From Deltaproteobacteria bacterium (GTDB taxonomy: Bacteria > Desulfobacterota > Desulfarculia > JACQYL01): a stretch of 64,000 bases of DNA. Position 1 is the first letter of the stretch. Each line of letters opens with the position of its first letter. Where the stretch lies: NCBI GenBank assembly GCA_016208165.1, contig JACQYL010000053.1, positions 21,447 through 85,446 on the forward strand, read 5' to 3'. The notes below the pieces were generated by a model. That model saw nothing but the letters and a program-made list of their open reading frames with translations. It made no database searches and was not told the origin of the DNA. The translations under genes were made by a program, and so were the position numbers. Of the stretch, positions 1,361 to 53,300 are shown piece after piece.

Positions 1361-3766
1361 CTATTTCGGCGCCGGAGATGGGCTATCCAAGGCAACCTCG
1401 AGTATTTGATCCATGTGCGACACAGGAACAAATCGGACTTTTCTTCTGATATTCTCCGGAATCTCGATCAGATCTTTAACATTCTTTTCCGGAATGAGTA
1501 CCGTTTTTATACCGGCTCGATGCGCCGCCAACGCTTTCTCTTTGAGCCCGCCCACGGGTAAGACCTTTCCCCGAAGCGTAATCTCACCCGTCATCGCTAC
1601 CGAGCGTTTCACCGCCACCTTGGAAAGCGCTGAAATGACCGCCGTCGCCATGGTGACACCCGCGGACGGGCCATCTTTAGGAATCGCCCCTGCCGGCACA
1701 TGGATGTGAAAATCCATTTTCTCATGGAAATCGGGCACCGTGCGTAAAGTGTCGCTGCGGTTTCGCGCATAGCTTAACGCCGCCTGGGCCGATTCCTTCA
1801 TTACGTCGCCGAGTTGGCCTGTAAGGAGCAATTTCCCTTTGCCCTTCATGAGAGAGGCTTCCACGTACAGTACATCCCCGCCGCTTTCGGTCCAGGCCAG
1901 CCCTGTTGCTACTCCGACCTCGTCCACCTCCTGCTCCAATTCCGATAAGAACGTGGGAGGACCCAAATAGCGATGCAGGTTGCCGAGTGTGATGCGGAAA
2001 GGACCTTCTTGTCCTTCGGCTACTCGACGCGCCACCTTCCGGCATATCTTTCCAATTTCGCGCTCGAGGTTCCTCAGCCCCGCCTCGCGGGTGTAGCGGG
2101 AAATAACGCCTCGCAGAGCCTCTCGTCCGATGATGATCCGGCTTGTAGAAATCCCGTTGTCTTTGATTTGTCTGGGTAGTAAATAGTTGAAGGATATGGA
2201 GAGCTTCTCTTCTTCGGTATAACCGGAAAGGCGGATAATTTCCATCCGGTCCCTCAGCGGCGAAGGAATGGGATCCGACAGGTTCCCCGTGGTAATGAAC
2301 ATCACTTTGCTGAGGTCGAATGGAATGTTCAGATAATGGTCGCTGAATGTGCTGTTTTGTTCGGGGTCCAACACTTCGAGCAAAGCCGACGCCGGATCTC
2401 CCCGGAAATCCTGGCCGATTTTGTCCACCTCGTCTATAATAAACACGGGGTTATTCGAACCCGCCTGCTTGATCCCCTGTATGATTCGTCCGGGCAAAGA
2501 ACCGACATACGTACGCCTGTGCCCCCGGATTTCGGCTTCGTCACGCACTCCGCCGAGTGAAATGCGGCACATCTTTCGGCCCACTGCGCGTGCAATGGAC
2601 CTGCCCAGCGAAGTCTTTCCGGTACCCGGAGGTCCAATGAAACAGAGGATGGGGCCTTTCATGTTCGGGTTCAACTTGCGCACGCTCAGGTACTCGAGGA
2701 TTCGATCCTTGACCTTGCTCAGATTGTAATGATCTTCATCAAGGATCTCTTTGGCTCGTTTGAGATCCAGCAAATCCCGGGTGCTTTTTCTCCAAGGCAA
2801 TTCCACCATCCAGTCCAGGAAAGTACGGATGACCGAGGCCTCCGCGGTATCGGGATGCATCTGATCGAGCCTCTCGAGCTGTTTCAAAGCTTCCTTTTCC
2901 GCCGGTTTGGGCATGCGGGCGCGTTTGATTTTCTGCCGGTATTCCTTTGCCTCCTCGTTGCGATCGTCGAACTCTCCTAGCTCTTTTTGAATCGCCTTAA
3001 GTTGTTCGCGAAGGTAATAGTCCCGCTGCATCTTGCCGATCTCTTCCGTGGCTTCGGATTGGATCTTCGCCTGCATGGCGGACACTTCCAGTTCCTTGCC
3101 CAGATAACGCGTGACTTTCATCAGGCGTTTTACGGGATCGGTCATCTCCAGTATCCGTTGAGCGTCTTCTCCCTTAATGCGCAAATTGGACGCCACGAGA
3201 TCGGAGAGACGTCCGGGGTCCTCTATGCTGTTCAGAATGGATAAGACATCCGGATTCAGCATGCCTCTCAAAGACAGAATCTTTTCAGACTGTTCGCGAA
3301 CGGTCCGTACGAGGGCCTCGACTTCCGGCGTAAATTCGGCTAAAGGTATATCATGGATGGGTTCCACCGACACCTGATATAGGGGGTCATTCTGAACGTA
3401 GTCCAGTATGCGCGCCTTGGTGAGGCCCTGAACCAGCACCTTGAACCTGCCGTCCGGGATTCGAAGAACGCGCATGATCATGGCCACGGTGCCCACGGAA
3501 TAGATGTCACTGGGTTTAGGTTCTTCTATGGTGGGCTTCTTCTGTGCGGCCAGAAATACCAGACGATGTTTCCCGTAAGCCTCCTCCACTGCCCGGATGG
3601 ACCGCTCTCGGCCGACAAATAAGGGCAGAAGCATGTAGGAGAAAATGACCACGTCTCTGAGGGTCAGCAAAGGTAAGTGCTCCGGGAGATCTATGTTTTC
3701 CAGGGGCAAACCGTGTTCTGTTTGACTTCCTTGTCTCATTTCCGTCATAAAAAGATCGTATGCCAT
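1361..3766 (-). CDS. lon: ATP-dependent Lon protease (protease La)
   Basis: 801 aa. Lon N-domain ([26 protein letters not shown]), Walker [11 protein letters not shown]-terminal serine protease motif [17 protein letters not shown]. Confidence 0.95.
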
Positions 3767-3824
3767 TCAACAGTGTTTAGTTATGGGTGGTAGTAACGGG
3801 GGTCATCTTAACAGAAAAAGAGGT

Positions 3825-4251
3825 GGAGTCAAGACGAGCCCAGGGGGACTTTGCCGGCCGAGCGAATAGACGTATACGGCAAACATTCCCGATGTGACTC
3901 AAGACGACCTCCCACGCCCCCGTAGGAAAGGTCATTTCCGCCTGCAGACATTCCAATACAACGCCGGAACGATTCGTGTGTCGGATTACGGCTCCTTCAA
4001 CCACGGGACACGGCGGATCGAGACCTTTTCTTGTTGACCACCGGTATTCGAGAACCCAATGCTTAATGTGACTTTGAGTCGGGTCTTTTTCTAATGGGTT
4101 TGAAACGAAGCGCCGATCACGCCACATAGAACGCGGTTTTCGATCTCATAACCTCGGTGAACCGTGGCCCGTCGAGCTTCCCGGTGCACCACCACCCCCG
4201 GTAACCCTTACGTCTCGGCTCCCCCGCCCCCTTCAAGGAGTCGAGACGAGC
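3825..4251. repeat. Pair of 15-bp direct repeats (GGAGTCAAGACGAGC at 3825-3839; GGAGTCGAGACGAGC at 4237-4251; 14/15 identical) bracketing about 400 bp of non-coding DNA. A degenerate third copy (GACTCAAGACGA) lies near 3896-3907
   Basis: Read directly from the sequence. The second copy overlaps the RBS (AAGGAG) and ends 4 nt before the ATG of the downstream gene at 4256. Confidence 0.6.
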
Positions 4252-4255
4252 AAAG

Positions 4256-6154
4256 ATGCCAATGGACATTCGTAATTCACATATTCTTCTCGTTTTCCCC
4301 ACCCGTGCGGAGATCAACAGGCTCTCGAAGTGGCTTGATGAACTGGGTTTCAAATACGTCCACGCCGCGCAGAATTTCTCCGCGGCCTGGGAGATTTTGA
4401 CTACTTCGAAATGCGACCTCATTGTTTCCGAACGCGATTTGTCCGATGTGGACGGCATGGATTTCTTGAGGAAAATAAACGCGGATTCCACTCTCTTTCT
4501 CATCCCGTTCATACTGGTTACCTCCGAGAATCGGAAAAACAAAATCATGGAGGCCGTATATGAAGGTGCGAGCGGATATGTGCTAAGACCCTACTCCTTC
4601 AAGACGCTCCAAGGAAGAATGCTGGACCTGTTGAAGGCCAAAGGCGCTTTCCTGGGCAAGATGAAGCAGGTGGAAGAAGGCGATCAGCTCACGATCCAGG
4701 GCAAATACGATGAAGCTATTGAAGCCTACAAGCACGCCATTGCCGACGCCGAAGACGAGGAACAGTTCTACCAGAAAGGCTACCGCTTTATGGCGGAAGG
4801 GCGGTACGAGGATGCCATTTCCGCCTTCCGAAAGGCGATTGAAATAAATCACCTGTTCGCAGAAGCCTACCGCGGGCTCGGCGAAGTGTACATGAAAAAG
4901 GGCAATATCGATGAAGCGGAGGAATATCTCATCAAGGCCGGAAAATTGTTTATTGAAAAGAGCCAGTTCAACGAAGCCCGGCAATCCATCCTGTTGGCGC
5001 TAAAAGTCAACCCCAACAGCGCGAATCCATACAATACTCTGGGGATCGTTTACCGTAAATCCGGGGATTTCCACAAATCTATTCAAAGCTATCGGTTGGC
5101 CCTTCGGATCGATCCCTTCGATGCAGCGGTCCACTACAACCTGGCGCGTGCTTGCACGTCAGCCAAACGGTACCGCGAGGCCCTGGACGCCATCGAGAAA
5201 GCACTCGAGTTGAGGCCTGATTTCCAGGAAGCCATCGAGTTGAAAGATTTCCTGCTGCGGTCAACCTCGGCGGCCGAACCCGAACCACCAGAAGCGATCC
5301 TCAACAAATATCTTCCCATCAGCCAGGAAACGAGAGGGCCACGCACGAATATCGTTGCGTCGGACCGCGAGATGGGACGCAAAGTCGAAATCGTACGTTA
5401 TGCTCTTCCAAAAGCCGACGAACGGCTCATTGACAGACGCCTGCTCGATGAAACCTGGGACCGCGTGATCAAGACGGCGCGTTTGAGCCATCCATCAGCC
5501 ATACTGATTTTCGATGTCCATCGAGAAGAAAAGGAGTTTTACCTGGTTCAGGAATACCTGAATGGGGAAAGCCTGGTCGGTTTCTCCAAGCGTGGAAAAG
5601 AGGTGCCTTTCCGGTTGGGACTGGAAATCGGGCTTCGCGTGTCCAATGTATTGGGTTACATGCACAAGGAAGACATCTTGCATTTGGCGTTGGACCCCGG
5701 CAACATCCATATTACCCGGGAGCGCGATGTGAAAGTGTCCGGTTTCTCGCTCTATCAATTCGAAACCGTGTTGACCTCTCAAAGCGGGGAAACCTCTCAA
5801 AAGGGAAATCAGTATCTGGCGCCGGAACACTTTTCCGGAGAGCAGCCCCTCTCCCCGGCTACGGATGTATTCTGCTTGGGCGTCATATTGTATGAGTTGG
5901 TCACCCGATCTCATCCGTTCAAGGGCGCGTCTCCCTCTTCCACCATGTACAATATCTGTTTCAACGAGCCGGAACCCTTCAAGCACGTGATCGATCCCTT
6001 CGAACGGGTGATGCAGGCCGTCTTCAAGAAGGCCTTGGCCAAGGACCCGAGCCGGCGCTACGCCGACGGAAAGGAAATGGAAAGAGCGCTGGTCGACACC
6101 GTAAGCGTACTTGACAGGAATTGGAAAAGGGAGCCAAGCTATCTGAAGAAGTAA
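4256..6154 (+). CDS. Atypical receiver domain / TPR repeats / protein-kinase-like (predicted pseudokinase) signalling protein
   Basis: 632 aa. N-terminal CheY-like fold lacks the acidic DD pair and has Glu at the phospho-acceptor position (CDLIVSERDLSDVDGMDF). The middle has TPR repeats (YRGLGEVYMKKGNIDEAEEYL, NPYNTLGIVYRKSGDFHKSIQSYRLALRIDP). The C-terminal Ser/Thr-kinase fold retains the APE motif (YLAPEHF) and the DxWSLG-like motif (DVFCLGVILYELVT). It has HLALDPGN instead of HRDLKPEN, SGFS instead of DFG, and no GxGxxG loop. Confidence 0.7.
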   Translation: MPMDIRNSHILLVFPTRAEINRLSKWLDELGFKYVHAAQNFSAAWEILTTSKCDLIVSERDLSDVDGMDFLRKINADSTLFLIPFILVTSENRKNKIMEAVYEGASGYVLRPYSFKTLQGRMLDLLKAKGAFLGKMKQVEEGDQLTIQGKYDEAIEAYKHAIADAEDEEQFYQKGYRFMAEGRYEDAISAFRKAIEINHLFAEAYRGLGEVYMKKGNIDEAEEYLIKAGKLFIEKSQFNEARQSILLALKVNPNSANPYNTLGIVYRKSGDFHKSIQSYRLALRIDPFDAAVHYNLARACTSAKRYREALDAIEKALELRPDFQEAIELKDFLLRSTSAAEPEPPEAILNKYLPISQETRGPRTNIVASDREMGRKVEIVRYALPKADERLIDRRLLDETWDRVIKTARLSHPSAILIFDVHREEKEFYLVQEYLNGESLVGFSKRGKEVPFRLGLEIGLRVSNVLGYMHKEDILHLALDPGNIHITRERDVKVSGFSLYQFETVLTSQSGETSQKGNQYLAPEHFSGEQPLSPATDVFCLGVILYELVTRSHPFKGASPSSTMYNICFNEPEPFKHVIDPFERVMQAVFKKALAKDPSRRYADGKEMERALVDTVSVLDRNWKREPSYLKK

Positions 6155-8164: not shown

Positions 8165-9379
8165 ATGAACCCCTATGAGCCATATCTCGCCTGGATCGAT
8201 TCCCAACTCGACTCCATGCGCCGGCTCGTAATGGTTTGGGCGGGCACGAACTCGGCCGGCGGTAATCAGGCGGGCCTGCTTGAAATGTGTGGGCTGTTGA
8301 AGAAGGCTTTCCAGGTACTGAATGCAGATATCGAGGAAGTGGCGCTGCCGAGCTATGCGTCCATAGACGACAGAGGAAACGCCACGGAAAAGGCTCTTGG
8401 CAGAGCGCTGGTCATAAAAATGCGCTCGGAAGCTCATTTAAGGGTATTTCTTTCGATCCACATGGACACGGTGTTCGGACCGGAGGATTCCGTTGGAACC
8501 CCGACCCAGCTCGGTGAGAAGCGGCTTCAAGGGCCCGGAGTTGCGGATGCCAAAGGCGGACTCGCCGTTGTGCTCAAGGCGTTGGAAGCCTTCGAGCGCA
8601 GCCCCTTCGCCGACCGTGTCGGATGGGAGTTGTTGATCAATCCGGACGAAGAGATCGGCTCACCCGGATCCGCTTCGATTCTGGCCGAAGCCGCGGCCAG
8701 GCACCAATTCGGACTGGTGTTCGAGCCGGCGCTGCCCGACGGCGCCCTTGTGGCGGCCCGCAAAGGGTCCGGCAATTTCGTGGCCACGTTCCACGGCAAG
8801 GCGGCGCACGCCGGAAGGGAACCCCATAAGGGCCGAAGCGCCATTAACGCCATGGCCCGGTTCATCCTGGACTTGAACTCGATACAGGAAGAAAGTCCGG
8901 GCATCACCGTCAACGTGGGGCGGGTCTCCGGAGGCGGAGCCCTAAACGTGGTCCCGGACCTGGCTCAGTGCCGGTTCAATATTCGCATCCCGACACCCGA
9001 GGACCAGGCGGGTGTTTTGGGACGGCTCGAGCATCTTGTCGCACAGGTGAACAGGCGTGAAGGTCTCTCCGTGGAACTTCGAGGCGCCTTTACCCGACCG
9101 GCCAAACCCCTCGACTACAGAACGGAACACCTTCTTAATCTGATTTCGAAATGCGGGAACGAATTGGGTCTGTCCCTGGACTGGCGCTCCAGCGGAGGCG
9201 TCTGCGACGGGAACAACCTATCGGCGGCGGGATTGCCCACGGTGGATAGTATGGGAGTTCGAGGGGACCATCTCCACAGCCCGCATGAAGTCCTATATCT
9301 GGACAGCCTGACGGAAAGGGCTAAGCTCACCGCATTGCTGCTGATGAAACTGGGATCCGGAGAGATCGAAGCTCCCTGA
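8165..9379 (+). CDS. M20-family metallohydrolase (CPG2/ArgE/DapE-like), candidate N-succinyl-amino-acid desuccinylase of the AST pathway
   Basis: M20 motifs HMDTV and GVADAKGG, with a dimerisation-domain pattern. Located immediately upstream of astA-astD-astB. Confidence 0.75.
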   Translation: MNPYEPYLAWIDSQLDSMRRLVMVWAGTNSAGGNQAGLLEMCGLLKKAFQVLNADIEEVALPSYASIDDRGNATEKALGRALVIKMRSEAHLRVFLSIHMDTVFGPEDSVGTPTQLGEKRLQGPGVADAKGGLAVVLKALEAFERSPFADRVGWELLINPDEEIGSPGSASILAEAAARHQFGLVFEPALPDGALVAARKGSGNFVATFHGKAAHAGREPHKGRSAINAMARFILDLNSIQEESPGITVNVGRVSGGGALNVVPDLAQCRFNIRIPTPEDQAGVLGRLEHLVAQVNRREGLSVELRGAFTRPAKPLDYRTEHLLNLISKCGNELGLSLDWRSSGGVCDGNNLSAAGLPTVDSMGVRGDHLHSPHEVLYLDSLTERAKLTALLLMKLGSGEIEAP

Positions 9380-9442
9380 CCCCTTGAGTCCATCTTTTCC
9401 AAACAGCAACCACCCTGATCGGGATGCCCCGAGGAGCGCTGC

Positions 9443-10471
9443 ATGGTCTTCGTTCGGCCGGTTTCAATAAATGATCTGGATACACTGGTCCGCCTCGCGG
9501 GCAAAGCGGGCTACGGCCTGACATCACTGCCCGCCGACCGGGAACTCCTCAGAAAACGCATTGCCAAGTCGGAACTAAGCTTCGCGTCCCTGGCGGAAGA
9601 ACCCGGCGGAGAAACCTATACGTTAGTGATGGAGGACCGCAGTACCGGGGAAGTGATCGGCACCGGCAGCATCGTGTCCAAAGTAGGTGGGTTTGAGCCT
9701 TTCTATGCGTACAAGCTCACTGTGGATGTCCACGAGTCAAAGGCCTTGAACGTGCATCGCGAGATTCCGATGCTCGAACTTGTGACCCAGCACAGCGGCC
9801 CCTGCGAAATAGGCGGACTCTTCATGGATCCAGAGCGTCGGGGTCACGGTAACGGCAGGCTCATGTCACTTTGTCGTTTTTTGTTCATGGCTGAACACGG
9901 AAACATGTTCGAACCACTGGTCACGGCTGAAATGCGAGGCGTTGTGGACGCGTCGGGGCGGTCTCCTTTTTGGGAAGCACTCGGAAAACTGTTTTTCGGA
10001 ATCGAGTATCCCCGAGCCGACTACTTGAGCATGAAAGACAAGAAATTCATCGGTGAGCTTATGCCGAGACATCCGATTTATGTTCCTCTTCTTCCCGCCG
10101 AGGCTCAGAAAGTGATCGGCCAGGTGCACGAGAACACTCGTCCGGCCATGAAGCTGCTGCTCGATGAAGGATTTTCGGACAGCGGAATGGTGGATATTTT
10201 TGACGCCGGCCCCATCCTCACCTGCGCTTTGGATCAAGTCCGGACCATAAGACAAAGCGTTAGAACCCATGTGGAGTCTGTTGTGTCCGACCTCGATAAC
10301 GCTTCAACGTTCATGATATCAAATACGGCCTTTGATTTCCGGGCTTGCAACGGGCCAGCTGAACGAGCGCCCGGTGGAGGGGTGCGCATCACGGAGTCTT
10401 CGGCCTGCGTGCTTCGTGTAAAGTCCGGCGATCGGGTGCTGCTGGCGACCCCGAGATCGGATCAGCATTGA
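9443..10471 (+). CDS. astA: Arginine N-succinyltransferase
   Basis: Collinear similarity to E. coli AstA across the whole length (RPV...DL..L..LA...G.GLTSLPA, LCRFLFMAE, AEMRGV.D..G.SPFW, ELMP.HPIY, QVH..T.PA, DIFD.GP.L.C). Confidence 0.9.
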   Translation: MVFVRPVSINDLDTLVRLAGKAGYGLTSLPADRELLRKRIAKSELSFASLAEEPGGETYTLVMEDRSTGEVIGTGSIVSKVGGFEPFYAYKLTVDVHESKALNVHREIPMLELVTQHSGPCEIGGLFMDPERRGHGNGRLMSLCRFLFMAEHGNMFEPLVTAEMRGVVDASGRSPFWEALGKLFFGIEYPRADYLSMKDKKFIGELMPRHPIYVPLLPAEAQKVIGQVHENTRPAMKLLLDEGFSDSGMVDIFDAGPILTCALDQVRTIRQSVRTHVESVVSDLDNASTFMISNTAFDFRACNGPAERAPGGGVRITESSACVLRVKSGDRVLLATPRSDQH

Positions 10472-10485
10472 TAGGAACTCTCGCC

Positions 10486-11955
10486 ATGGCCTTCAAATCC
10501 CATTTTATCCGCAATCAATGGATCGAGGGTAAGGGAAACGATTTTGTGTCCACAGACCCCGCTACGGGCGAGACCGTTTGGCAAGGACGCATGGCAACAG
10601 AGGACGAAGTCCATCAGGCGGTCATGGCCGCCCGATCCGCTTACGAACACTGGGCGTCGGGCGATCTGTCGGCCCGAATCCGCGTTCTTGAAGCCTTTCG
10701 GGACAGGCTGGTCGAACATCGGCAAACCCTGGCTGAGACGATATCCATGGAGACCGGAAAACCGCTGTGGGAATCGCTGTTGGAAGTAGCCGCCATGGCG
10801 GCCAAGGTGGACATCTCCAGGGATGCCTACGAAGAGCGGCGGAGTCCCATTGTCCAGGAACGGGGGGGCGTCCAGACCGCAGTCCGTTTCAAACCCCACG
10901 GCGCATTCGGCGTCGTGGGTCCATTTAACATGCCGGGCCATCTGCCCAATGGTCATATTGTGCCCGCGCTTCTGGCCGGCAATACGGTGGTGTTCAAACC
11001 CAGCCGCAAGACGCCTGGGACGGCGCAAAAGACACTCGAACTTTGGGAAGCCTCCGGAATCCCGGCCGGCGTGATCAACCTCGTTCAGGGAGATCATTCC
11101 TCGGTTCATGCCATCGTCCGTCATCCCGACATACACGGCCTTGCGTTCACCGGCAGCTACGCAGCGGGAAAAGCGCTTCATCAGGCGTCCGCGGAACACC
11201 CGGAACGCATTCTCGCGCTCGAGATGGGCGGGAACAACCCCTTGGTGGTGCACGAAGTGTCCAATCCCATGGCGGCGGCGTACATGACTGTCCAATCCGC
11301 TTTTATCACTTCAGGCCAGCGCTGTAGTTGCGCCCGAAGACTGATAGTCACCTCGGGATCTCGCGGCGATGAGTTCGTAGACACTCTTCGAGGGATGATC
11401 CAACGGATCCGCGTTGGCCCGTGGACGGATCTACCGGAACCTTTCATGGGTCCCGTCATCTCCGCAGCCGCGGCAAAGGAGCTCTTGAAGGCGCAGGACG
11501 ACTTGGCCGAGCGGGGTGGGCGTCCTCTTGAAACCATGGGGCTCAAGAGCGATACCAGCGCTATGCTCACTCCCGGCCTGATGGACGTCACATCGGTCAA
11601 GGATCGCGCCGACACGGAAACCTTCGGACCATTTCTCCAACTGATCCGGGTTCCGGATTTCGATGCGGCCCTCGTGGAAGCGAATCGAACGGCCTACGGG
11701 CTTTCGGCGGGTATTCTGACGGATGAACCGGCGCTCTATAGACGCTTTTTCAACGAGGTCCGCGCCGGAGTGATTAACTGGAACCGGCCCATCACCGGCG
11801 CCAGTTCCTATCTGCCCTTCGGCGGAGTCGGCATCAGCGGCAACCACCGTCCGAGCGGCTATTACGCAGCGGACTATTGCGCCTATCCCGTCGCCTCTCT
11901 CGAGTCGTCTTCCCTTGCCCTTCCCGAGCAGCCGACGCCGGGGATTACCTTATGA
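10486..11955 (+). CDS. astD: N-succinylglutamate 5-semialdehyde dehydrogenase (aldehyde dehydrogenase family)
   Basis: Strong similarity to E. coli AstD ([79 protein letters not shown].ASLES). ATG at 10486 chosen ([15 protein letters not shown]). The ORF-finder TTG start at 10468 overlaps the astA stop. Confidence 0.9.
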   Translation: [489 protein letters not shown]

Positions 11956-13313
11956 CGCCCGGTGTGTTCGAAGTCAATTTCGACGGAATCGTGGGGCCAA
12001 CCCACAATTACGCCGGGTTATCGCACGGTAATCTGGCGTCGGAACGCCATAAATGGAACGTGTCCAATCCACGCGAGGCGTTTACCCAGGGGCTCCGTAA
12101 AATGAAGCTTCTGGCGGATATGGGATTGAAACAGGCCGTACTGCCCCCCCACGAAAGGCCGGACATAGAGACGCTGAGGCGACTGGGGTTTCACGGGACT
12201 GAGGCCGATATGATCGCCGAGGCGAAACGCAAGGACCCGGTTCTTTTGGCCTCCTGCTACAGCGCCTCGAGCATGTGGACCGCCAACGCGGCCACGGTTT
12301 CTCCTTCATCGGACACCTCCGATGGACGCGTACATTTCACTCCCGCCAATCTGGTAACCCAATTCCATCGCTCCCTGGAGACGGACGCCACCGCATTGGT
12401 GTTACGAAAGATTTTCTTCGACAATGCCGTGTTTGAGCACCATCCTCCCCTGCCGGCGACTCTACATTTCAGCGATGAAGGCGCCGCCAACCATACGCGC
12501 CTTTGCGATGCGCTTCATCATCCCGGCATCGAGATCTTTGTCTACGGGAAGGAAGCCTTCGATCCAACCTTGCAGGGGCCGGCGATTTACCCCGCCAGGC
12601 AGACATACGAGGCGTCCCTGGCCATATCTCGCCTTCATCTTCTGGACCCGAACGCTGTTTTTTTTCTTCGGCAAGGCCCTGCGCTCATTGACGCAGGCGT
12701 ATTCCATAACGACGTCATAGCCGTAGGGCATCGAGACACCCTTGTTTATCATGAGAGCGCCTTTTGCCGAGGCAGGAACACTCTCGAACAGATTCGATCC
12801 GTTTTTAACAAGCGATACGGACAAGACCTCCATTGCATCGAAGTGCCGTTGTCGGCGCTCTCCGTCGAAGAGGCCGTACAGACGTACCTGTTCAACAGCC
12901 AGTTGGTAACGCTGCCCAATGGTTTCCTGTGCCTGATCGCGCCTGTCGAGTGTCGGGAGAATCCCAAAACAGAGGCGATATTGAAAGAAGTGGTTCGTTC
13001 GGAGAATCCCATCGAGAGTATCCGATACGTCAACCTGCGCCAAAGCATGCGAAACGGAGGCGGTCCCGCCTGCCTCCGGCTCCGGGTTCCGCTAACCCTT
13101 GATGAAACTACCCGAGTCCATCAGGCCGTCTTCCTGACGGATGTGCTCTACAAAACACTGGAAGTCTGGGGCCAAACATATTATAGAGATACCCTGCACG
13201 CGGATGACCTGTCCGATCCAAAACTGGCGGAAGAAAGCCGCGCTGCATTGGACGCGTTGACGGAAATATTGAAACTGGGATCGATTTACCGCTTTCAGAG
13301 GGCGGGAGCCTGA
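11952..13313 (+). CDS. astB: N-succinylarginine dihydrolase
   Basis: MTPGVFEVNFDGIVGPTHNYAGLSHGNLAS...GVFHNDVIAV...MRNGGGPACLRLRV matches AstB along its entire length. The ATGA-type overlap with the astD stop suggests translational coupling. Confidence 0.9.
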   Translation: MTPGVFEVNFDGIVGPTHNYAGLSHGNLASERHKWNVSNPREAFTQGLRKMKLLADMGLKQAVLPPHERPDIETLRRLGFHGTEADMIAEAKRKDPVLLASCYSASSMWTANAATVSPSSDTSDGRVHFTPANLVTQFHRSLETDATALVLRKIFFDNAVFEHHPPLPATLHFSDEGAANHTRLCDALHHPGIEIFVYGKEAFDPTLQGPAIYPARQTYEASLAISRLHLLDPNAVFFLRQGPALIDAGVFHNDVIAVGHRDTLVYHESAFCRGRNTLEQIRSVFNKRYGQDLHCIEVPLSALSVEEAVQTYLFNSQLVTLPNGFLCLIAPVECRENPKTEAILKEVVRSENPIESIRYVNLRQSMRNGGGPACLRLRVPLTLDETTRVHQAVFLTDVLYKTLEVWGQTYYRDTLHADDLSDPKLAEESRAALDALTEILKLGSIYRFQRAGA

Positions 13314-14127: not shown

Positions 14128-16095
14128 ATGAGTTCCACGCCGAGCAGCCCTCACCCATCCATGTCTTGTCACGCTCTTCTAACCGACATCAAATGGATTC
14201 GGGACCTAAACCTGGCTCTGGGTCGCGCTGTAACCCTTGAAGGGCTCCATGATGCGATCCTCACGGAAACGCTCGACCGGTTTAGGGCCCGTGTCGCCTT
14301 CCTGATCGAGTTTGACAATCGCAACGGCAAAACGCATCCCGTCCTGCGGAGCTTCGGAATCGAGACGAAAGGATTGGAACGCCTCAGAAGAATTCCCTGG
14401 GAAACCGCGTTGACGCGAAACGAACCCGTCATCGGACCGAGCGATCCCGAGTTTTCCAACCTTCATCACCTCCTGTCGGACATTGGAGGCGATCACCGAT
14501 GGATGGCGATTCCTCTTCTATCCAGCGAACGGAAGCTCGGATATCTCGTTCTAGGTACGAACCGTCATGCGCAACTCCTCGAGTCTGTCGATCGTGAAGT
14601 CGTCCGTCTCTTGAGTGTGGAGCTGGGGAGGTTTATTCAGCACTTTCGCGTGCACCGCGCACTGGACGATACGGAAAGGCGCTACCGAAGGATCTACGAA
14701 AACTCAAAAGATGTGTTTTACGAAACCACCAAAGAGGGTCGCTTTGTGGATGTAAATCAGTCGGGGGTCGATCTGTTCGGTTTCAGCAATAAGAGCGACG
14801 TACTAGCACTGGAATCCATCGCTTTTTTGTATCACGACGCAGCGGACCGTGTCCGATTTCAGGAAGCGATCGAACGCGACGGATACGTCAAGGATTATGA
14901 GGTGAAGTTCAAGACCAGAACCGGCCAGCCATTAGACGTGCTCATCACCTCGAACGTTCGAAGGGACCTGGAGGGGCGCATCCTTGGATATGAAGGCGTT
15001 ATTAAGAACATTACCGCGCGCAAGAGCCTCGAAACCAAGCTGGCTGAGTCGGAAGCCAAGTACCGTCTGATGGTCGAGAATTCGATTGACGGCATAGCCA
15101 TCTATGGGGAATGGCGTTTCCTTTATGTAAACCGGGCGTTCCTGTCCATGTTCGGGTACGAGGACGTGGAAGAAGTCAAGGGTATGGACATTCTCCAGAT
15201 CATTGCACCGGATTCCCAAGTCAGTTTCCTGGAACGGATCCATTGGGATCGGTCCATGAAAACAGGGCTTAAACTCTTTGAAGGTTATGGTTTGAAAAAG
15301 GATGGAATTGTTTTTGCCCTCGAGATGAGTGTTTTCCCCACCCAATTCGCGGGTCAGGACGTCCATCAGATTACCTTCCGCGATATCACCGAAAAGAAAG
15401 AGATGGAGGAGCAGCTCATACAGAGCGAGCGCCTTCGAGCCATGGGCAAGCTCGCCTTCGATATCGCCCACGAGATCAACAATCCACTGGGCGGCATCAT
15501 CACCTATTCGTATCTTGTGCTGGAATCTCAAACCCTGGACGATACCGACAGACGGAACATCGAAAAAGTGATCAAGTTGGCCAATCGCTGCAAAATCATC
15601 GTCAAAAGCCTTCTGGATTTTGCCCGGGACGACAATCAGGACCGGGAGCAGATGGATTTGAACGAAATCCTTCAGGAGACACTGATGTTGGTTGAAAACC
15701 ACCTGCTCCTGAGACACGTGGAGTTAAAGATCGATTTGGAATGGAATCTGCCGCTGGTTTCGGTGGCCCGCGGAAAAATGGAACAGGTTTTTCTGAATCT
15801 CATTATGAACGCAGCGGAGGCCATGGAAGGATCCGGAGTACTCGAGATTCGAACGAAGCTTTCCGAAAGCGGAGAATGGGTTCAGGTCATCTTTAAGGAC
15901 AACGGTCCGGGTGTGGAGGAGGAAAATCTTCGAAAGCTGTTTCAACCCTTCTTCACCACCAAGAAACGGGGTCGCGGGACCGGTCTGGGCCTTTCGGTCA
16001 GCCACGGCATCGTGAGCCAGCACGACGGACGAATTCTAGTGAGGACCAAGCCCGGCGAAGGCTGCGAGTTTACCATAGAATTACCGTGCTCTTAG
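14128..16095 (+). CDS. Sensor histidine kinase (GAF + PAS/PAC + HisKA + HATPase_c), soluble
   Basis: H-box FDIAHEINNPLGGI. N, G1 and G2 boxes (LIMNAAEAM, FKDNGPGV, GTGLGLS). The upstream half has GAF- and PAS-like repeats. Confidence 0.9.
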   Translation: MSSTPSSPHPSMSCHALLTDIKWIRDLNLALGRAVTLEGLHDAILTETLDRFRARVAFLIEFDNRNGKTHPVLRSFGIETKGLERLRRIPWETALTRNEPVIGPSDPEFSNLHHLLSDIGGDHRWMAIPLLSSERKLGYLVLGTNRHAQLLESVDREVVRLLSVELGRFIQHFRVHRALDDTERRYRRIYENSKDVFYETTKEGRFVDVNQSGVDLFGFSNKSDVLALESIAFLYHDAADRVRFQEAIERDGYVKDYEVKFKTRTGQPLDVLITSNVRRDLEGRILGYEGVIKNITARKSLETKLAESEAKYRLMVENSIDGIAIYGEWRFLYVNRAFLSMFGYEDVEEVKGMDILQIIAPDSQVSFLERIHWDRSMKTGLKLFEGYGLKKDGIVFALEMSVFPTQFAGQDVHQITFRDITEKKEMEEQLIQSERLRAMGKLAFDIAHEINNPLGGIITYSYLVLESQTLDDTDRRNIEKVIKLANRCKIIVKSLLDFARDDNQDREQMDLNEILQETLMLVENHLLLRHVELKIDLEWNLPLVSVARGKMEQVFLNLIMNAAEAMEGSGVLEIRTKLSESGEWVQVIFKDNGPGVEEENLRKLFQPFFTTKKRGRGTGLGLSVSHGIVSQHDGRILVRTKPGEGCEFTIELPCS

Positions 16096-20096: not shown

Positions 20097-22394
20097 TCAA
20101 CGAAAGCTGTGACAACTGCAGCAATCAAGCCTTTCAGTATGTCCCGCCGGTTGCGCAGTGATCGGACCCGGGCCGCACAGATCTACCTGCGACCCGTCGC
20201 CCCCGCTCAGGTCCGGAGCGAAGGGCACGAACTCGAAGTTGGCGCCCTGATCCGCCATGTGGATTTTTGGATCCACACCGTCGTGACAGGAAGAGCACGC
20301 GGAAGCGGTTGGAGTGATGTTAATATCGTCGTTGGGACTCGCCGCGTCGTTCCCTACTTCGATGGTCGTAGGCAACACGTTGTCGCCGATGGCCGGCAAT
20401 TCAAAGCTTCCATCGATATGACAGGCCTCGCAATCGTTTAACGGCCGGGGATAGCGAACTTCGCTGTAGTCGTTGGGGCTACCGCCAAATCCGTACACCA
20501 CGATGCCTTCGGTCCTGAAACCGTCGGCGGAGGAGGCGCCGGCATGGATGGCATGGATCAAGTATTTGAAATCAATGGTTTCCTGTGTCTTACCGTCGGC
20601 CGTTGTCGCTGAGCCACCCGGGCGCCGGCCGATATCCGTGGCATCCGGGTTATGGCAGATTACGCACAGCTGAGTTTCGTCGTTCCGGTTTGCTCCGTGC
20701 AAGCTCAACAAACCGTGGCACTGATCGCAGTTGGCGATGTCCACAACCTCCCGACGCGCCTGTGGCGTAGCGTCCGTGACGGCAAAAAAATTCACCACGC
20801 CTTTGACCGGCACCCGTACATCGAACACGCCGGGTTCGGATTCCACCGCAGGATGCCCCTCGATGGCCACAACCCCCGATCCGGTCACAGCCGCAGGAAT
20901 GGCCACTCCGGATGTCACTGTAAACGTGCCGTCGCCGTTGTCCACCGCGCTTGTAATCGGATTGATCGAGATGGGCTGAGCCGGGGTGCTGGTGCTGCCC
21001 GTGTTCGTATAATCTTCGGAATTCCAGCCGATGAGGATCGCCAATCGGCTGGCGCCTCCGGGAGCATTGAATTCCGGATCGACGAGAATATCGTAGGGCG
21101 CGTCACCGTTGGTGGGATCCGTAACCGAGAATGTGATCACCGGAAACTGTCCGGGCCCCGTGTTCTGGACGTCCAATATGTTGTATTCGAACCTGGCTGC
21201 GGCGGCCTGTTCCGGAATCACGTGAGTATCCGTGATGCCCGCCGCGCCTCCGGACGCCGGATGACAGTTGACGCAGCTGCGGTTGTCGGGTTGGGCGCCC
21301 CCGGCATGGTTTTCACCGGTCACCAAGTTGACGTCGTCGTGACACGACGTGCATGCGGCAATGGTGGGAACGTTCATCCAGTTGTCACCATCCGGCGTAT
21401 CGGAGTCCGAGCCGTCGTGACATTTGGTGCAGTTGCGCCGATCCTGAGGAAAGACCACGTTGGAGTAGTCGTTTACCGAATCCCCAAAACCATATATCAC
21501 ATATTCACCGCCGGCCTGCACACTGGGCAGGTCCTCACCCGAGTGGATCTTGTGGATCATTACCTTGAAATCAACGGTGTTGCCGCTGTTGGCGTCCGTA
21601 CTGCCCGGATTGTGGCAGGTTACGCAATACTTGACAGCGATCCTATCCCCGCCGTGAAATCCCAGCTTCCGGTGGCACTCGTCGCAGTTCGCGTTCCTCA
21701 CGATCGAGCGAGTGGTTATCGGCGTGCTGCCATCGGGCACGAATTCGAATATGGCGTTATCCGTGTTCTCCGTAGTCTGCATGGCCACGCGATGCGTCAG
21801 GGCGGGATTATACGCGACGGCTACGGGAGACGTTACGTTTTGGATATCGAACGAGAAGGTATAGCTGTAGCTGCCGTCCTGATTGTCCACAAACACGCCC
21901 CCCTGCGTACTCGTCCTTTCCGACGAAGCTTGAACCTGGTCCGTGGTCCCCGGCCCTACATCAGGGGTTTCAATCACATTGATGTAACTCTGCCAGAAAC
22001 TCGCATTGCCGTTTGCAGCGGGATTCAGCTGCGCCAGAGTGAAGCGGATGTTCGAAGGGGCCACAAACGCGAGCGGCTGGCCCGCGTTGAACAGCCTGAA
22101 ATTTATGGTCGTGGCGCCGCCAACGATCGTCACTGCGTCTATGACCCCGGTTATAGTCGTCTCCGGAGTGCTGTGCTGCGCGGCCACGTCTACGATCCGG
22201 CCCGGATCGTGGCACAGCATGCATTCTTCGTTGAATGTCTGCTCCACGAGAGGGGGCGCCTGATCTCCGGTACCGCCGCTCTCGCTGCCGCACCCTGCCA
22301 GAAGTAGAACGTAACCGATCGCAAGGCACAAGACCAAGCTGTTAAACAATCCTTTTCTCATGACACCATCTCCTTCCACTCTGAGGTCCGTCAC
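20097..22394 (-). CDS. Large multiheme c-type cytochrome lipoprotein (11 CxxCH motifs), candidate outer-surface terminal reductase
   Basis: CxxCH motifs: CMLCH, CDECH, CVTCH, CTKCH, CTSCH, CVNCH, CDQCH, CVICH, CEACH, CSSCH, CCSCH. Signal peptide with lipobox LLAGC (alternative start at M12 near 22361). Thr/Gly/Asn-rich, beta-rich composition between hemes. Confidence 0.9.
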   Translation of the reverse strand: MTDLRVEGDGVMRKGLFNSLVLCLAIGYVLLLAGCGSESGGTGDQAPPLVEQTFNEECMLCHDPGRIVDVAAQHSTPETTITGVIDAVTIVGGATTINFRLFNAGQPLAFVAPSNIRFTLAQLNPAANGNASFWQSYINVIETPDVGPGTTDQVQASSERTSTQGGVFVDNQDGSYSYTFSFDIQNVTSPVAVAYNPALTHRVAMQTTENTDNAIFEFVPDGSTPITTRSIVRNANCDECHRKLGFHGGDRIAVKYCVTCHNPGSTDANSGNTVDFKVMIHKIHSGEDLPSVQAGGEYVIYGFGDSVNDYSNVVFPQDRRNCTKCHDGSDSDTPDGDNWMNVPTIAACTSCHDDVNLVTGENHAGGAQPDNRSCVNCHPASGGAAGITDTHVIPEQAAAARFEYNILDVQNTGPGQFPVITFSVTDPTNGDAPYDILVDPEFNAPGGASRLAILIGWNSEDYTNTGSTSTPAQPISINPITSAVDNGDGTFTVTSGVAIPAAVTGSGVVAIEGHPAVESEPGVFDVRVPVKGVVNFFAVTDATPQARREVVDIANCDQCHGLLSLHGANRNDETQLCVICHNPDATDIGRRPGGSATTADGKTQETIDFKYLIHAIHAGASSADGFRTEGIVVYGFGGSPNDYSEVRYPRPLNDCEACHIDGSFELPAIGDNVLPTTIEVGNDAASPNDDINITPTASACSSCHDGVDPKIHMADQGANFEFVPFAPDLSGGDGSQVDLCGPGPITAQPAGHTERLDCCSCHSFR

Positions 22395-22403
22395 AAACTT
22401 ATG

Positions 22404-23000: not shown

Positions 23001-23013
23001 GTGGTGTCTCCTG

Positions 23014-24036: not shown

Positions 24037-24153
24037 TCCACCTCCTAGTTATGCTTCTTCCAGATCAGATCTCTCAGCCGGTCCGACCACGTGCGGCGGA
24101 CTACGCTTGTCCTCGTCAAACATAAGCCGGACATCATTTGGATCTTCCGGTTC

Positions 24154-25425: not shown

Positions 25426-25443
25426 ACCTCCCCCTCCTTATGT

Positions 25444-26995: not shown

Positions 26996-27193
26996 ATCCG
27001 TATCACCAATATTCCCGTATCAGCGCTCAGTGCATTTTCCCGGTCAGGATTCACCCATTGTTGGTGGAACGGGTGACCTGTTCGGCCCTGTCTGGATCTT
27101 CTTCCAAAGAAGAACTCACTTCTTCAATCGGTAGGTTTCCGCCGGATTCCTTCCAACTAAAGGAAGTATTCTGTCTTCCGGATTTCCGGCATG

Positions 27194-50214: not shown

Positions 50215-50217
50215 ATC

Positions 50218-51318: not shown

Positions 51319-51432
51319 GGATATCTTTTCGCTTTTTCGCCTTGCAGCCCGGACGCTTATGCCGGCATTCAGAGTCCCTACACATCCGCGGAAGCAGGAG
51401 GAAACCCCTAACCCAGTCGGGTGCGTGTCGCT

Positions 51433-53296: not shown

Positions 53297-53300
53297 TCAC

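What the first reader, a model, noticed from the sequence alone, without database searches (positions are those of the whole stretch)
4256..6154. REC-TPR-kinase protein in which both phosphotransfer domains look catalytically dead (pseudo-receiver plus pseudokinase scaffold)
Receiver fold: no N-terminal acidic pair, and Glu replaces the phospho-acceptor Asp (DLIVSE).

Kinase fold: HRD is replaced by HLA and DFG by (S)GF(S). The glycine loop is absent and VAIK has Lys replaced by Arg. Substrate-binding elements (APE, subdomain IX, DPSRR) are conserved.

This pattern is typical of regulatory pseudoenzymes that act as scaffolds or allosteric partners. The Glu may mimic a permanently 'on' receiver.
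Basis: seen in the sequence. Interest (0 to 1): 0.6.

Follow-up and report, generated by a model that had tools for sequence, protein, structure and literature searches.

The report
Doubly dead receiver–TPR–pseudokinase signalling protein
This gene encodes a rare, well-conserved bacterial protein in which a two-component receiver domain and a Ser/Thr kinase domain have both lost their catalytic residues but are kept by selection, so it most likely works as a non-enzymatic adaptor; its gene usually sits beside a protease gene.

Summary
ORF 4256-6154 (+) encodes a 632-aa protein with three domains: receiver, five TPRs, and a complete PknB-like kinase fold.

- **Receiver:** it lacks four of the five active-site residues. 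The acidic pair is F14-P15, the phospho-acceptor Asp is E59, and the Lys is R111. Only T89 remains.
- **Kinase:** it lacks all three catalytic residues. The β3 Lys is V380, HRD is H-L-A, and DFG is G-F-S. The GxGxxG motif is gone. APE, subdomain IX Asp and subdomain XI Arg are kept.
- **One correction:** the VAIK Lys aligns with Val, not Arg. R381 is one position later and is not conserved.

The losses are shared by about 12 orthologues (42-89% identity), all from uncultured Thermodesulfobacteriota. All three domains are under purifying selection (dN/dS 0.06-0.19).

The family is tiny. It occurs in 4 of 185,579 GTDB species and has 4 representatives among 1.84 billion cluster representatives. 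It matches none of the architectures reported in the two surveys of bacterial pseudokinases I checked.

Glu at the acceptor site is derived. The sister clade and related REC-TPR proteins keep Asp.

No kinase, phosphatase or cognate partner is nearby. Every Glu-clade gene lies divergently next to lon, and four of six Asp-clade genes follow pepF.

Best reading: a non-catalytic adaptor or scaffold. A link to proteolysis is speculative. I rate it a new variant of known kinds, of moderate interest.

The parts
4256..6154 (+). Complete ORF (632 aa plus stop) for the REC-TPR-pseudokinase protein. The conserved start is probably the second ATG at 4262.
   Evidence: It is 100% identical to P0001, which a source names 'MAG: tetratricopeptide repeat protein [Deltaproteobacteria bacterium]'. 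In the 88%-identical orthologue L041 the first ATG is ACG, and orthologues P0002 and P0004 start at the position of M3.
4280..4630 (+). Pseudo-receiver domain, CheY-like (aa 9-125). Its α5 helix continues as one long helix (aa 115-147) into the TPR array.
   Evidence: Pfam PF00072, E 2.4e-13. CheY structures match at E 1e-15. AF2 secondary structure. dN/dS 0.12-0.18.
4295..4300 (+). F14-P15 in place of the Mg2+-binding acidic pair (DD).
   Evidence: F14 is present in all 10 members covering this column. P15 is present in 8 of those 10.
4430..4432 (+). E59 in place of the phospho-acceptor Asp (DLIVSE).
   Evidence: It is Glu in the lon-linked clade (5 sequences) and Asp in the sister clade (6 sequences) and in the REC-TPR outgroup proteins.
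4520..4522 (+). T89, the retained 'T' residue of the receiver active site. Y108 (4577-4579), the Tyr106 equivalent, is also retained.
4586..4588 (+). R111 in place of the conserved receiver Lys.
   Evidence: It is Arg in 8 members and Lys in 3.
4697..5266 (+). TPR array: five repeats plus a capping helix (aa 148-337). This is the most conserved part of the protein.
   Evidence: Pfam TPR_1, five stretches, E 4e-33. Mean pairwise identity is 60%, against 50% for REC and 34-47% for the pseudokinase. Most invariant columns lie at aa 191-297. dN/dS 0.06-0.13.
5267..5305 (+). Variable, disordered inter-domain linker (aa 338-350).
   Evidence: pLDDT is below 50 for residues 338-347. Mean identity 13%. 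dN/dS 0.82.
5306..6070 (+). Pseudokinase domain with a complete PknB-like bilobal fold (aa 351-605).
   Evidence: Pfam PF00069, E 1.6e-24. PknB phmmer E 1.6e-21. Local canonical-kinase HMM E 1e-47. Foldseek best hits are PknB, PknA and Stk1, with TM about 0.8 normalised to the target over 265-289 columns.
5384..5398 (+). V377-E-I-V380-R381, the β3 'VAIK' equivalent. The Lys column holds V380.
5681..5704 (+). H476-L-A-L-D-P-G-N483, the degenerate catalytic loop (HRDxKxxN). The catalytic Asp is A478 and the Lys is D480.
   Evidence: The Asp column is Ala, Ser or Gly in all 12 members.
5741..5749 (+). G496-F-S498 in place of DFG.
   Evidence: The Asp column is Gly in 11 of 12 members.
5819..5827 (+). 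A522-P-E524, the retained APE motif. Its structural partners D537 (5864-5866) and R601 (within DPSRR, 6044-6058) are also retained.
   Evidence: P, E, D537 and R601 are invariant.
6071..6151 (+). Conserved C-terminal helix and basic tail (LDRNW[KR]..P.[FY]LK[KR]).
   Evidence: Helix at aa 605-625. dN/dS 0.06-0.08.
1361..3766 (-). Context: the lon gene (801 aa), transcribed divergently. It is the conserved neighbour of every Glu-clade member.
   Evidence: Pfam LON_substr_bdg, AAA, Lon_lid and Lon_C. Adjacency is seen in the window and in L001, L005/L010, L034, L040 and L041-L044.

Best explanation
The gene encodes a cytoplasmic, non-catalytic signalling adaptor made of three protein-interaction modules.

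**Receiver.** The N-terminal CheY-like domain is a pseudo-receiver. Without the metal-binding pair, the acceptor Asp and the Lys, it cannot carry out Asp phosphotransfer. It keeps the Thr/Tyr switch residues and the α4-β5-α5 face. Its α5 helix runs straight into the TPR array. It therefore probably acts through a fixed or ligand/partner-controlled conformation, or through dimerisation.

**TPR array.** This is the most conserved part, and I infer it is the main docking site for a conserved partner.

**Pseudokinase.** The C-terminal domain keeps the PknB-like fold and the C-lobe docking surfaces: P+1/APE, the αF-αG block and the APE-Arg salt bridge. It has lost every residue needed to bind and transfer ATP's γ-phosphate. 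It most likely binds a substrate-like or kinase-like partner without modifying it.

**Shown:** the domain anatomy, the residue losses, their age, purifying selection, the rarity of the family and the gene neighbourhoods.

**Inferred:** the absence of activity, the adaptor role and the identity of the partners.
For: - **Domains and residue mapping:**
- **Losses shared across the family:** all about 12 orthologues at 42-89% identity share them. The nearest non-family relatives are at most 34% identical, and most carry canonical VAIK, HRD and DFG motifs in a simple pattern check.
- **Selection:** dN/dS is 0.06-0.19 in REC, TPR, both kinase lobes and the tail, but 0.82 in the linker.
- **Fold:** AF2 gives mean pLDDT 82 with a full N-lobe β-sheet and an αC helix. 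Foldseek gives TM about 0.8 to PknB, PknA and Stk1.
- **What is invariant in the pseudokinase:** the invariant residues are structural or docking residues (H476, P523-E524, D537, R601, and the block S561..C568-F569..P572..H577). None lines the ATP pocket.
- **Gene layout:** the gene stands alone, with an upstream gap of 250-720 bp and no conserved operon partner.
- **Literature:** Asp-to-Glu and Lys-to-Arg are the commonest replacements in pseudo-receivers (PMC12632262; PMC4395418). Bacterial pseudokinases such as EssB/YukC act as scaffolds (PMC12599244).
Against: - No partner was identified. No Hanks kinase, PP2C, FHA or receiver gene lies within the 64-kb window.
- Loss of canonical residues does not prove loss of all chemistry. 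SelO, SidJ and WNK-type exceptions exist (PMC12599244).
- The inter-domain arrangement in the model is uncertain (pTM 0.47), so no docking surface could be mapped in 3D.
- The Asp-clade receivers keep D, T and K/R and an invariant Glu at DD+4 (E19). Residual phosphorylation there is not excluded.
Confidence: 0.6

Rival explanations
1. Proteolysis adaptor or regulator, a specific sub-case of the adaptor model. Like RssB (receiver plus dead PP2C, which delivers σS to ClpXP), the protein would bind clients through its TPR and pseudokinase surfaces. It would present them to Lon or shield them from it. In the sister clade it would act in a pathway involving the oligopeptidase PepF.
For: - Every Glu-clade locus examined lies head-to-head with lon, even where the downstream side differs. 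These are the window and L034, L040, L041/42, L005/L010/L043/L044 and L001, which make 6 clusters at 90% identity.
- Four of six Asp-clade loci have pepF (Peptidase_M3) immediately upstream on the same strand, again with varying downstream genes.
- The RssB precedent of a receiver fused to a pseudo-enzyme: PMC10755785, PMC6546054.
- Few Lon adaptors are known; SmiA was the first (PMC9204741).
Against: - Adjacency within each clade may simply be inherited synteny next to a housekeeping gene. That leaves effectively only two independent associations, both noticed after the fact.
- The genes are divergent or separated by 280-720 bp, so they are not co-transcribed.
- Two Asp-clade loci (L002, L009) have neither neighbour.
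- There is no interaction evidence.
Confidence: 0.2
2. Allosteric partner or decoy of an active Hanks kinase encoded elsewhere in the genome. It would act by pseudokinase-kinase dimerisation, as in KSR/RAF, HER3 or STRAD, or by competing for that kinase's substrates.
For: - The domain is PknB-like throughout, including the N-lobe.
- The [RK]351-Y352 start and D/E421 are conserved. From my memory of the PknB N-lobe back-to-back dimer interface, these correspond to PknB R10 and D76. That correspondence is a lead only and was not tested.
- The substrate-docking C-lobe is retained.
Against: - No Hanks kinase, PP2C phosphatase or FHA protein lies within 64 kb or in any orthologous neighbourhood.
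- Whether these genomes encode any active Hanks kinase could not be checked.
Confidence: 0.12
3. The receiver is still a switch. Either E59 acts as a phosphomimetic that locks the window's clade 'on', or the Asp-clade proteins are still phosphorylated and the Glu clade is a constitutive derivative.
For: - T89, Y108 and R/K111 are retained, and an invariant Glu sits at DD+4.
- Glu is the commonest replacement at the acceptor position and can partly activate some regulators (PMC12632262).
- The Asp-to-Glu change coincides with the change of genomic context from pepF to lon.
Against: - Both clades lack the metal-binding pair, which is needed for phosphotransfer (PMC12632262).
- Asp-to-Glu alone does not activate CheY, the closest solved relative, nor PhoB or Spo0A (PMC4395418).
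- No histidine kinase is a conserved neighbour.
Confidence: 0.15
4. Cryptic enzyme. The kinase-like domain would retain nucleotide binding or a non-canonical activity (AMPylation, glutamylation, atypical phosphotransfer) using relocated residues.
For: There are precedents: SelO, SidJ, and WNK-type relocation of the Lys (PMC12599244; bioRxiv 10.1101/2025.01.12.632604).
Against: - No invariant Lys, Asp or Glu lies in β1-β3, αC or the catalytic loop.
- The β3 column is hydrophobic in all members. The αC Glu varies (E/K/S/A/G/N). The Mg-binding Asn is kept in only 4 of 12 members.
Confidence: 0.06
5. Decaying relic or annotation artefact with no function.
For: One homologue (P0008) is truncated at the start of the kinase domain.
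Against: - That truncation is a frameshift in an error-prone long-read contig. The neighbouring lon, larC and cinA genes are also split, and the reading frame continues after the break.
- All other members are intact and under purifying selection.
Confidence: 0.02

Closest known systems
RssB (E. coli ClpXP adaptor: receiver + inactive PP2C-like domain)
   Same: A receiver domain is joined through a helical linker to a catalytically dead signalling-enzyme fold. The protein acts as a protein-protein adaptor (PMC10755785, PMC6546054). The gene here is linked to an AAA+ protease gene.
   Different: - RssB's receiver is a true, phosphorylatable receiver.
- Its dead domain is a phosphatase fold, not a kinase fold.
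- It has no TPR array.
- Its partner is ClpXP, not Lon.
- There is no sequence relationship beyond the receiver domain.
Pseudo-receivers / aspartate-less receivers (plant PRRs, fungal Rim15p, ChxR, FrzS, RitR)
   Same: The receiver fold lacks active-site residues. Asp-to-Glu and Lys-to-Arg are the commonest replacements (PMC12632262, PMC4395418). Rim15p also combines a protein-kinase domain with a Glu-type pseudo-receiver.
   Different: - Here four of the five residues are gone.
- The domain is N-terminal and fused to TPRs and a dead kinase.
- Rim15p's kinase is described as an active regulatory kinase (PMC12632262).
Catalogued bacterial Hanks-type pseudokinase families (ActPs1-3, GLW, CP1, DYD, DLHK) and EssB/YukC and MviN
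   Same: A Hanks fold with the VAIK Lys, HRD Asp and DFG Asp all degraded, conserved as a family (PMC12599244). The CP1 catalytic loops 'HkslcPgn' and 'DFS' look superficially like HQSLTP.. and GFS here.
   Different: - CP1 members are all fused to a COG3899 ATPase.
- In the 42-family atlas, TPRs occur only C-terminal to the kinase, and no receiver fusion is described (bioRxiv 10.1101/2025.01.12.632604).
- Here the order is REC-TPR-pseudokinase, and the protein is soluble.
PknB/PknA/Stk1-type active Ser/Thr kinases, and PknG (kinase + TPR)
   Same: These are the best sequence and fold matches: 22-26% identity, TM about 0.8 normalised to the target. PknG also pairs a kinase domain with TPRs.
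   Different: They are active enzymes with intact K/D/D residues and a Gly loop. Their domain order is opposite. PknB and Stk1 are membrane receptors with PASTA domains.
REC-TPR proteins without a kinase domain (P0014, P0015)
   Same: They are 32% identical over the REC-TPR half. They have the same TPR signature (NPFN.LG...RK.GD) and also lack the acidic pair.
   Different: They have no pseudokinase domain and keep Asp at the acceptor position. They are themselves uncharacterised.

Membership tests
Protein kinase superfamily, Hanks-type fold (Pfam PF00069) | Bilobal kinase fold recognisable by profile and by structure | tested here: met
   Pfam E 1.6e-24, score 87 against a cut-off of 31.7. 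Local canonical-kinase HMM E 1e-47, covering β2 to αI. Foldseek TM about 0.8 to PknB, PknA and Stk1.
Active Hanks-type Ser/Thr kinase | β3 Lys (VAIK) that positions the ATP phosphates | tested here: not met
   V380 here. The column is Val, Ile or Leu in all 12 family members.
Active Hanks-type Ser/Thr kinase | Catalytic Asp of HRD, and the Lys and Asn of the catalytic loop | tested here: not met
   The loop reads H-L-A-L-D-P-G-N. The Asp column is Ala, Ser or Gly in all members. The Lys column is D/T/K/R/S. The Asn is kept in only 4 of 12.
Active Hanks-type Ser/Thr kinase | Metal-binding Asp of DFG | tested here: not met
   G496-F-S here. Gly in 11 of 12 members.
Active Hanks-type Ser/Thr kinase | Gly-rich loop GxGxxG | tested here: not met
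   The sequence is T-R-G-P-R-T, with a single Gly that is not conserved.
Active Hanks-type Ser/Thr kinase | Phosphotransfer activity | not testable with these tools
   Needs autophosphorylation, substrate-phosphorylation and nucleotide-binding assays.
Pseudokinase (sequence definition: lacks at least one of VAIK-Lys, HRD-Asp, DFG-Asp) | [quoted passage not shown] | tested here: met
   All three are absent. The definition is taken from PMC12599244 and PMC13519141.
Receiver domain (Pfam PF00072) | (βα)5 CheY-like fold recognisable by profile | tested here: met
   Pfam E 2.4e-13, score 50.6 against a cut-off of 30.2. CheY structures match at E 1e-15. The AF2 model shows five strands alternating with five helices.
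Functional (phosphorylatable) receiver | Active-site quintet: DD pair, D, T, K | tested here: not met
   DD is F14-P15, D is E59 and K is R111. Only T89 is present.
Pseudo-receiver / aspartate-less receiver (PMC12632262 definition) | Receiver fold lacking any of the five residues (PsR); lacking the D residue (ALR) | tested here: met
   It lacks four residues, including D. The Asp-clade relatives qualify as PsR but not as ALR.
TPR repeat proteins | Tandem 34-residue helix-turn-helix repeats | tested here: met
   Five TPR_1 stretches, E 4e-33. Paired helices between aa 151 and 337 in the model.
CP1 bacterial pseudokinase family | Kinase domain physically linked to a COG3899 ATPase domain, often with PAS, GAF or FhlA (PMC12599244) | tested here: not met
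   The Pfam and NCBIfam scans show only REC, TPR and Pkinase.
ActPs1-3, GLW, DYD, DLHK pseudokinase families | Family-specific constraint patterns and architectures from the bSTK atlas | not testable with these tools
   The profiles are not available here. The published architectures (Actinobacterial MviN fusions, C-terminal multi-domain DLHK, and so on) do not include REC-TPR N-terminal to the kinase.
RssB-type protease adaptor | Receiver plus pseudo-enzyme that binds a client and an AAA+ protease | not testable with these tools
   Only gene adjacency to lon or pepF is available. The dead domain is a kinase fold, not PP2C, so any resemblance is functional analogy rather than family membership.

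The most novel reading that the evidence does not exclude
The protein founds a previously undescribed class of phosphorylation-independent adaptors. A pseudo-receiver, a TPR array and a pseudokinase would together recruit clients to the Lon protease or protect them from it. It would be an RssB-like logic built from a dead kinase instead of a dead phosphatase. The Asp-to-Glu change at the receiver site would mark the switch from a pepF-linked to a lon-linked pathway.
Probability: 0.15. Interest if true: 0.75.

Novelty: new variant of a known kind. Interest (0 to 1): 0.5.

Why it matters
Two 2025 reviews describe bacterial Hanks-type pseudokinases and bacterial pseudo-receivers as common but mechanistically almost unexplored (PMC12599244, PMC12632262). 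This family puts one of each in a single soluble polypeptide, bridged by a highly conserved TPR array. It also offers a built-in natural experiment: Asp versus Glu at the acceptor site, correlated with different protease-gene neighbours.

The protein is a compact, expressible test case for how dead signalling domains are reused as interaction modules. If the lon linkage is functional, it would add to the very short list of Lon adaptors.

Its weaknesses are that the family is tiny, is confined to uncultured Thermodesulfobacteriota, and has no identified partner.

Tried and rejected
- **Homologue search with the kinase domain alone.** It returned only relatives at most 34% identical, most with canonical motifs. 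It did not return the family itself, which is a limit of the word index. The exhaustive profile search and the metagenome scan then showed a sharp gap between the family and everything else. The other top hits checked were tandem-kinase proteins whose scores add up over several domains.
- **Homologue search with the receiver domain alone.** No hits. The origin of the receiver beyond 'CheY-like' is unresolved.
- **Foldseek against AFDB50.** The library was unavailable.
- **Rfam scan of the 5' region and the gene.** Nothing found. No convincing promoter or terminator for the gene was found either.
- **CP1 pseudokinase membership.** I considered it because of similar catalytic-loop remnants and rejected it on architecture.
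- **Partner search within the window.** My own kinase HMM and phmmer for REC and TPR against all six-frame ORFs, plus Pfam on 47 ORFs, found no Hanks kinase, PP2C, FHA or receiver. The only signalling gene is an orphan GAF-PAS histidine kinase 8 kb downstream. None of the orthologous neighbourhoods that extend that far has a counterpart; in L034, which shares the window's downstream gene order, the fetched flank ends before that position.
- **Chemotaxis link.** The receiver is CheY-like, and cheW and mcp genes lie near two closely related Asp-clade loci. I judged this too sporadic.
- **Truncated homologue P0008 as evidence that the pseudokinase is dispensable.** Rejected: it is an assembly frameshift.
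- **The 116-aa ORF at 3777-4127 (-) in the intergenic region.** It has no Pfam hit and is not called in the orthologous loci. The region aligns with large indels between close relatives. I treated it as spurious.
Full report
**1. What is there**

ORF 4256..6154 on the + strand encodes 632 aa. It is identical to a database protein that a source names only 'MAG: tetratricopeptide repeat protein [Deltaproteobacteria bacterium]' (P0001).

Pfam finds three domains:
- a receiver domain, aa 20-119, E 2.4e-13;
- five TPRs, about aa 148-337, E 4e-33;
- a protein-kinase domain, aa 407-602, E 1.6e-24, matching profile positions 52-252 only. The canonical N-lobe motifs are too divergent for the Pfam model.

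NCBIfam gives only sub-threshold matches to the PknB/Stk1 and CheY families, far below the curated cut-offs.

In the 88%-identical orthologue L041 the first ATG is ACG, and other orthologues begin at the position of Met3. The real start is therefore probably 4262. I keep the numbering of the 632-aa ORF.

**2. Residue-level check of the receiver**

phmmer against PDB aligns aa 24-126 with CheY at E 1e-15.

| CheY residue | This protein |
|---|---|
| Asp57 | E59 (DLIVSE) |
| Thr87 | T89 |
| Tyr106 | Y108 |
| Lys109 | R111 |
| acidic pair (D12, D13) | F14-P15 |

The acidic pair maps to F14-P15 by gapless extension of the CheY alignment and by the AlphaFold secondary structure: strand 9-13, loop 14-16, helix from 17. 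Shifting by one residue would give P15-T16, which is also non-acidic.

Four of the five active-site residues are therefore missing. Under the definitions of PMC12632262 this is a pseudo-receiver and also an aspartate-less receiver. That paper and PMC4395418 report Glu at 'D' and Arg at 'K' as the commonest replacements in such domains.

**3. Residue-level check of the kinase**

Three alignments agree: phmmer to PknB, a profile I built from 41 canonical kinases that are the nearest non-family relatives, and Foldseek on the model.

| Canonical element | This protein |
|---|---|
| VAIK | V377-E-I-V380 (Lys is Val) |
| HRDxKxxN | H476-L-A-L-D-P-G-N483 |
| DFG | G496-F-S498 |
| GxGxxG | T-R-G-P-R-T |
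| APE | A522-P-E524, retained |
| subdomain IX Asp | D537, retained |
| subdomain XI Arg | R601 in DPSRR, retained |

R381 follows the Lys column and varies across the family (R/Q/L/A). All codon positions were verified by translation.

**4. Fold**

AlphaFold2 on the family alignment gives mean pLDDT 82.4. It predicts:
- a complete N-lobe β-sheet (352-383, 418-433);
- an αC helix (394-408) and a normal C-lobe;
- a receiver whose α5 continues as one 33-residue helix into the TPR array;
- a disordered linker (338-347).

pTM is 0.47, so the relative positions of the domains are not reliable.

Foldseek against the PDB returns PknB, PknA and Stk1 first, with E about 1e-15 and TM about 0.8 normalised to the target over 265-289 columns. 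The kinase fold is intact. Only the chemistry is gone.

**5. The family**

About 12 clusters at 90% identity share the full architecture, at 42-89% identity. The table of key positions shows the following.

Receiver:
- F14 and E19 (position DD+4) are invariant; P15 is present in 8 of 10 members.
- The acceptor is Glu in five sequences and Asp in six.
- T or S occupies position 89; Y108 is invariant.
- The Lys position holds Arg in 8 and Lys in 3.

Kinase:
- The β3 Lys column is Val, Ile or Leu in 12 of 12.
- The HRD Asp column is Ala, Ser or Gly in 12 of 12.
- The DFG Asp column is Gly in 11 of 12.
- The catalytic-loop Asn is kept in only 4 of 12.
- The αC Glu is not conserved.
- P523-E524, D537 and R601 are invariant.

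The degeneration therefore predates the family's radiation.

Two REC-TPR proteins without a kinase domain (P0014, P0015; 32% identity) also lack the acidic pair but keep Asp. By parsimony, Glu is derived in the window's clade.

dN/dS (Nei-Gojobori method):

| Region | Window vs P0002 | P0009 vs P0010 |
|---|---|---|
| REC | 0.18 | 0.12 |
| TPR | 0.13 | 0.06 |
| linker | 0.82 | not computable |
| N-lobe | 0.19 | 0.09 |
| C-lobe | 0.10 | 0.06 |
| tail | 0.08 | 0.06 |

All three domains are functional in the evolutionary sense. The TPR array is the most conserved module: 60% mean pairwise identity, against 50% for REC, 34% for the N-lobe and 47% for the C-lobe.

**6. Distribution**

- Among one genome for each of 185,579 GTDB species, only four MAGs carry the gene, at five loci. 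All are labelled Thermodesulfobacteriota or 'delta proteobacterium'.
- An exhaustive profile search of 1.84 billion cluster representatives with the pseudokinase domain finds four family representatives. The other top hits I checked are multi-kinase proteins whose scores add up over several domains.
- A scan of 241 million metagenome records finds four family loci. Identity then drops sharply to 32% or less.
- The nearest non-family kinases are mostly canonical by a simple motif check. I found no REC-TPR-kinase with an active kinase domain.

**7. Context**

The 64-kb window looks like an anaerobic Desulfobacterota chromosome. It carries multi-haem and MtrC-like cytochromes, a NiFe hydrogenase and AST-pathway genes. 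No other Hanks kinase, PP2C, FHA or receiver gene is present. The only signalling gene is an orphan GAF-PAS-PAS histidine kinase at 14128-16095. None of the orthologous neighbourhoods that extend that far has a counterpart; the fetched flank of L034, which shares the window's downstream gene order, ends before that position.

The gene itself is always free-standing, with an upstream gap of 250-720 bp.

Two neighbour patterns stand out.
- Every Glu-clade locus is head-to-head with lon, followed by larC-cinA-ligT, even where the downstream side differs. These loci are the window, L034, L040, L041/42, L005/L010/L043/L044 and L001.
- Four of six Asp-clade loci have pepF (Peptidase_M3) immediately upstream on the same strand, again with differing downstream genes. 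Two have neither neighbour.

This is suggestive. It amounts to only two independent associations, both noticed after the fact.

**8. Mechanism**

Shown:
- neither phosphotransfer active site is present;
- both folds and the TPRs are maintained by selection;
- the invariant residues of the pseudokinase are structural or surface residues of the C-lobe (P+1/APE, the APE-R601 salt bridge, and the block S561..C568-F569..P572..H577 around αG), not ATP-pocket residues.

Inferred: the protein is a non-catalytic adaptor.
- The TPR array and the pseudokinase C-lobe dock partners.
- The pseudo-receiver is rigidly connected through its α5 helix. It contributes a fixed or partner-controlled conformation, or dimerisation.

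I put 0.6 on this general model. Within it:
- a proteolysis-linked (RssB-like) role gets about 0.15-0.2 (precedents: PMC10755785, PMC6546054; few Lon adaptors are known, PMC9204741);
- a role as allosteric partner or decoy of a distant Hanks kinase gets about 0.12.

A residual receiver switch or a phosphomimetic Glu cannot be excluded (0.15). Both clades lack the metal site, and Asp-to-Glu alone does not activate CheY, PhoB or Spo0A (PMC4395418). A cryptic enzymatic activity is unlikely (0.06), because no conserved polar residue remains in the pocket. A decaying relic is excluded by selection. The one truncated homologue is an assembly frameshift.

**9. Comparison with what is known**

Pseudo-receivers and bacterial pseudokinases are both established kinds. 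The 42-family atlas of bacterial Ser/Thr kinases names seven pseudokinase families. It finds TPRs only C-terminal to kinase domains and describes no receiver fusion (bioRxiv 10.1101/2025.01.12.632604; PMC12599244).

CP1 has similar-looking catalytic-loop remnants, but all its members are linked to a COG3899 ATPase, which is absent here.

Functionally the closest analogue is RssB, a receiver plus a dead phosphatase. The closest analogue in composition is fungal Rim15p, a kinase plus a Glu-type pseudo-receiver (PMC12632262). Neither is a relative.

I therefore rate this a new variant of known kinds: a previously undescribed, narrowly distributed REC-TPR-pseudokinase family in which both signalling domains are dead.

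**10. Verdict**

- Function and partners remain untested.
- Interest is moderate (0.5). The protein is a tidy model for two under-studied classes of dead signalling domains, with an intriguing protease-gene linkage. It is rare, comes from uncultured organisms, and has no demonstrated mechanism.

Noticed in passing
window 3805-3832 (- strand): A σ70-like promoter with an extended -10 element (TTGACT-N16-TAAGAT, preceded by TG) lies about 40 nt upstream of the lon start codon. Its core is invariant in the four aligned lon-linked loci (window, L034, L005, L001). It is probably the lon promoter, not the promoter of the pseudokinase gene.
   Followed up: partly
window 3777-4127 (- strand): A 116-aa ORF fills much of the lon/pseudokinase intergenic region. 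It has no Pfam hit and is not called in orthologous loci. The region shows large indels between close relatives. It is probably not a gene.
   Followed up: partly
window 4256-4264: There are two in-frame ATGs (4256 and 4262). Orthologues support the second as the conserved start: the first is ACG in L041. The AAGGAG Shine-Dalgarno-like motif at 4235-4240 lies unusually far upstream of either ATG (15-21 nt).
   Followed up: partly
window 14128-16095 (+): An orphan GAF-PAS-PAS-HisKA-HATPase histidine kinase with no receiver gene nearby. It is the only other signalling gene in the window.
   Followed up: no
window 8165-13313 (+): A cluster of an M20 peptidase gene plus astA, an aldehyde dehydrogenase gene and astB (arginine succinyltransferase pathway) in what looks like an anaerobic Desulfobacterota genome. 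The mechanical ORFs 10468-11955 and 11877-13313 overlap by 79 nt, so one start is probably mis-assigned. The same gene order is found in L034.
   Followed up: no
window 20097-28525 (- strand): An MtrC/OmcA-like multi-haem cytochrome (765 aa), followed by an FMN-binding protein, ApbE, a porin-like protein, cytochrome b561 and a further multi-haem cytochrome. This could be an extracellular electron-transfer cluster.
   Followed up: no
window 48217-50214 (- strand): A 665-aa ORF with no Pfam match at E 1e-5 or better. It sits inside a cluster of radical-SAM/SPASM, epimerase, methyltransferase and glycosyltransferase genes (44531-56000).
   Followed up: no
L040 (ena:ERZ21869602:ctg77007l), whole locus: This long-read metagenome contig carries many frameshifts. 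lon is split into three ORFs, larC into two and cinA into two, and the REC-TPR-pseudokinase gene is split at the start of the kinase domain. The 363-aa database protein P0008 is therefore an assembly artefact.
   Followed up: yes
L002 and L003 (MAG CAWGVV01, one 3.35-Mb contig): One genome carries two Asp-clade paralogues, P0007 and P0012. P0012 is the only family member that keeps an Asp in the DFG position (I-D-F-R).
   Followed up: partly
L007 2759-5465 and L035 2517-5241: In two closely related Asp-clade loci, an mcp-cheW pair lies on the opposite strand just upstream of pepF. This is the only hint of a chemotaxis connection for the CheY-like pseudo-receiver.
   Followed up: no
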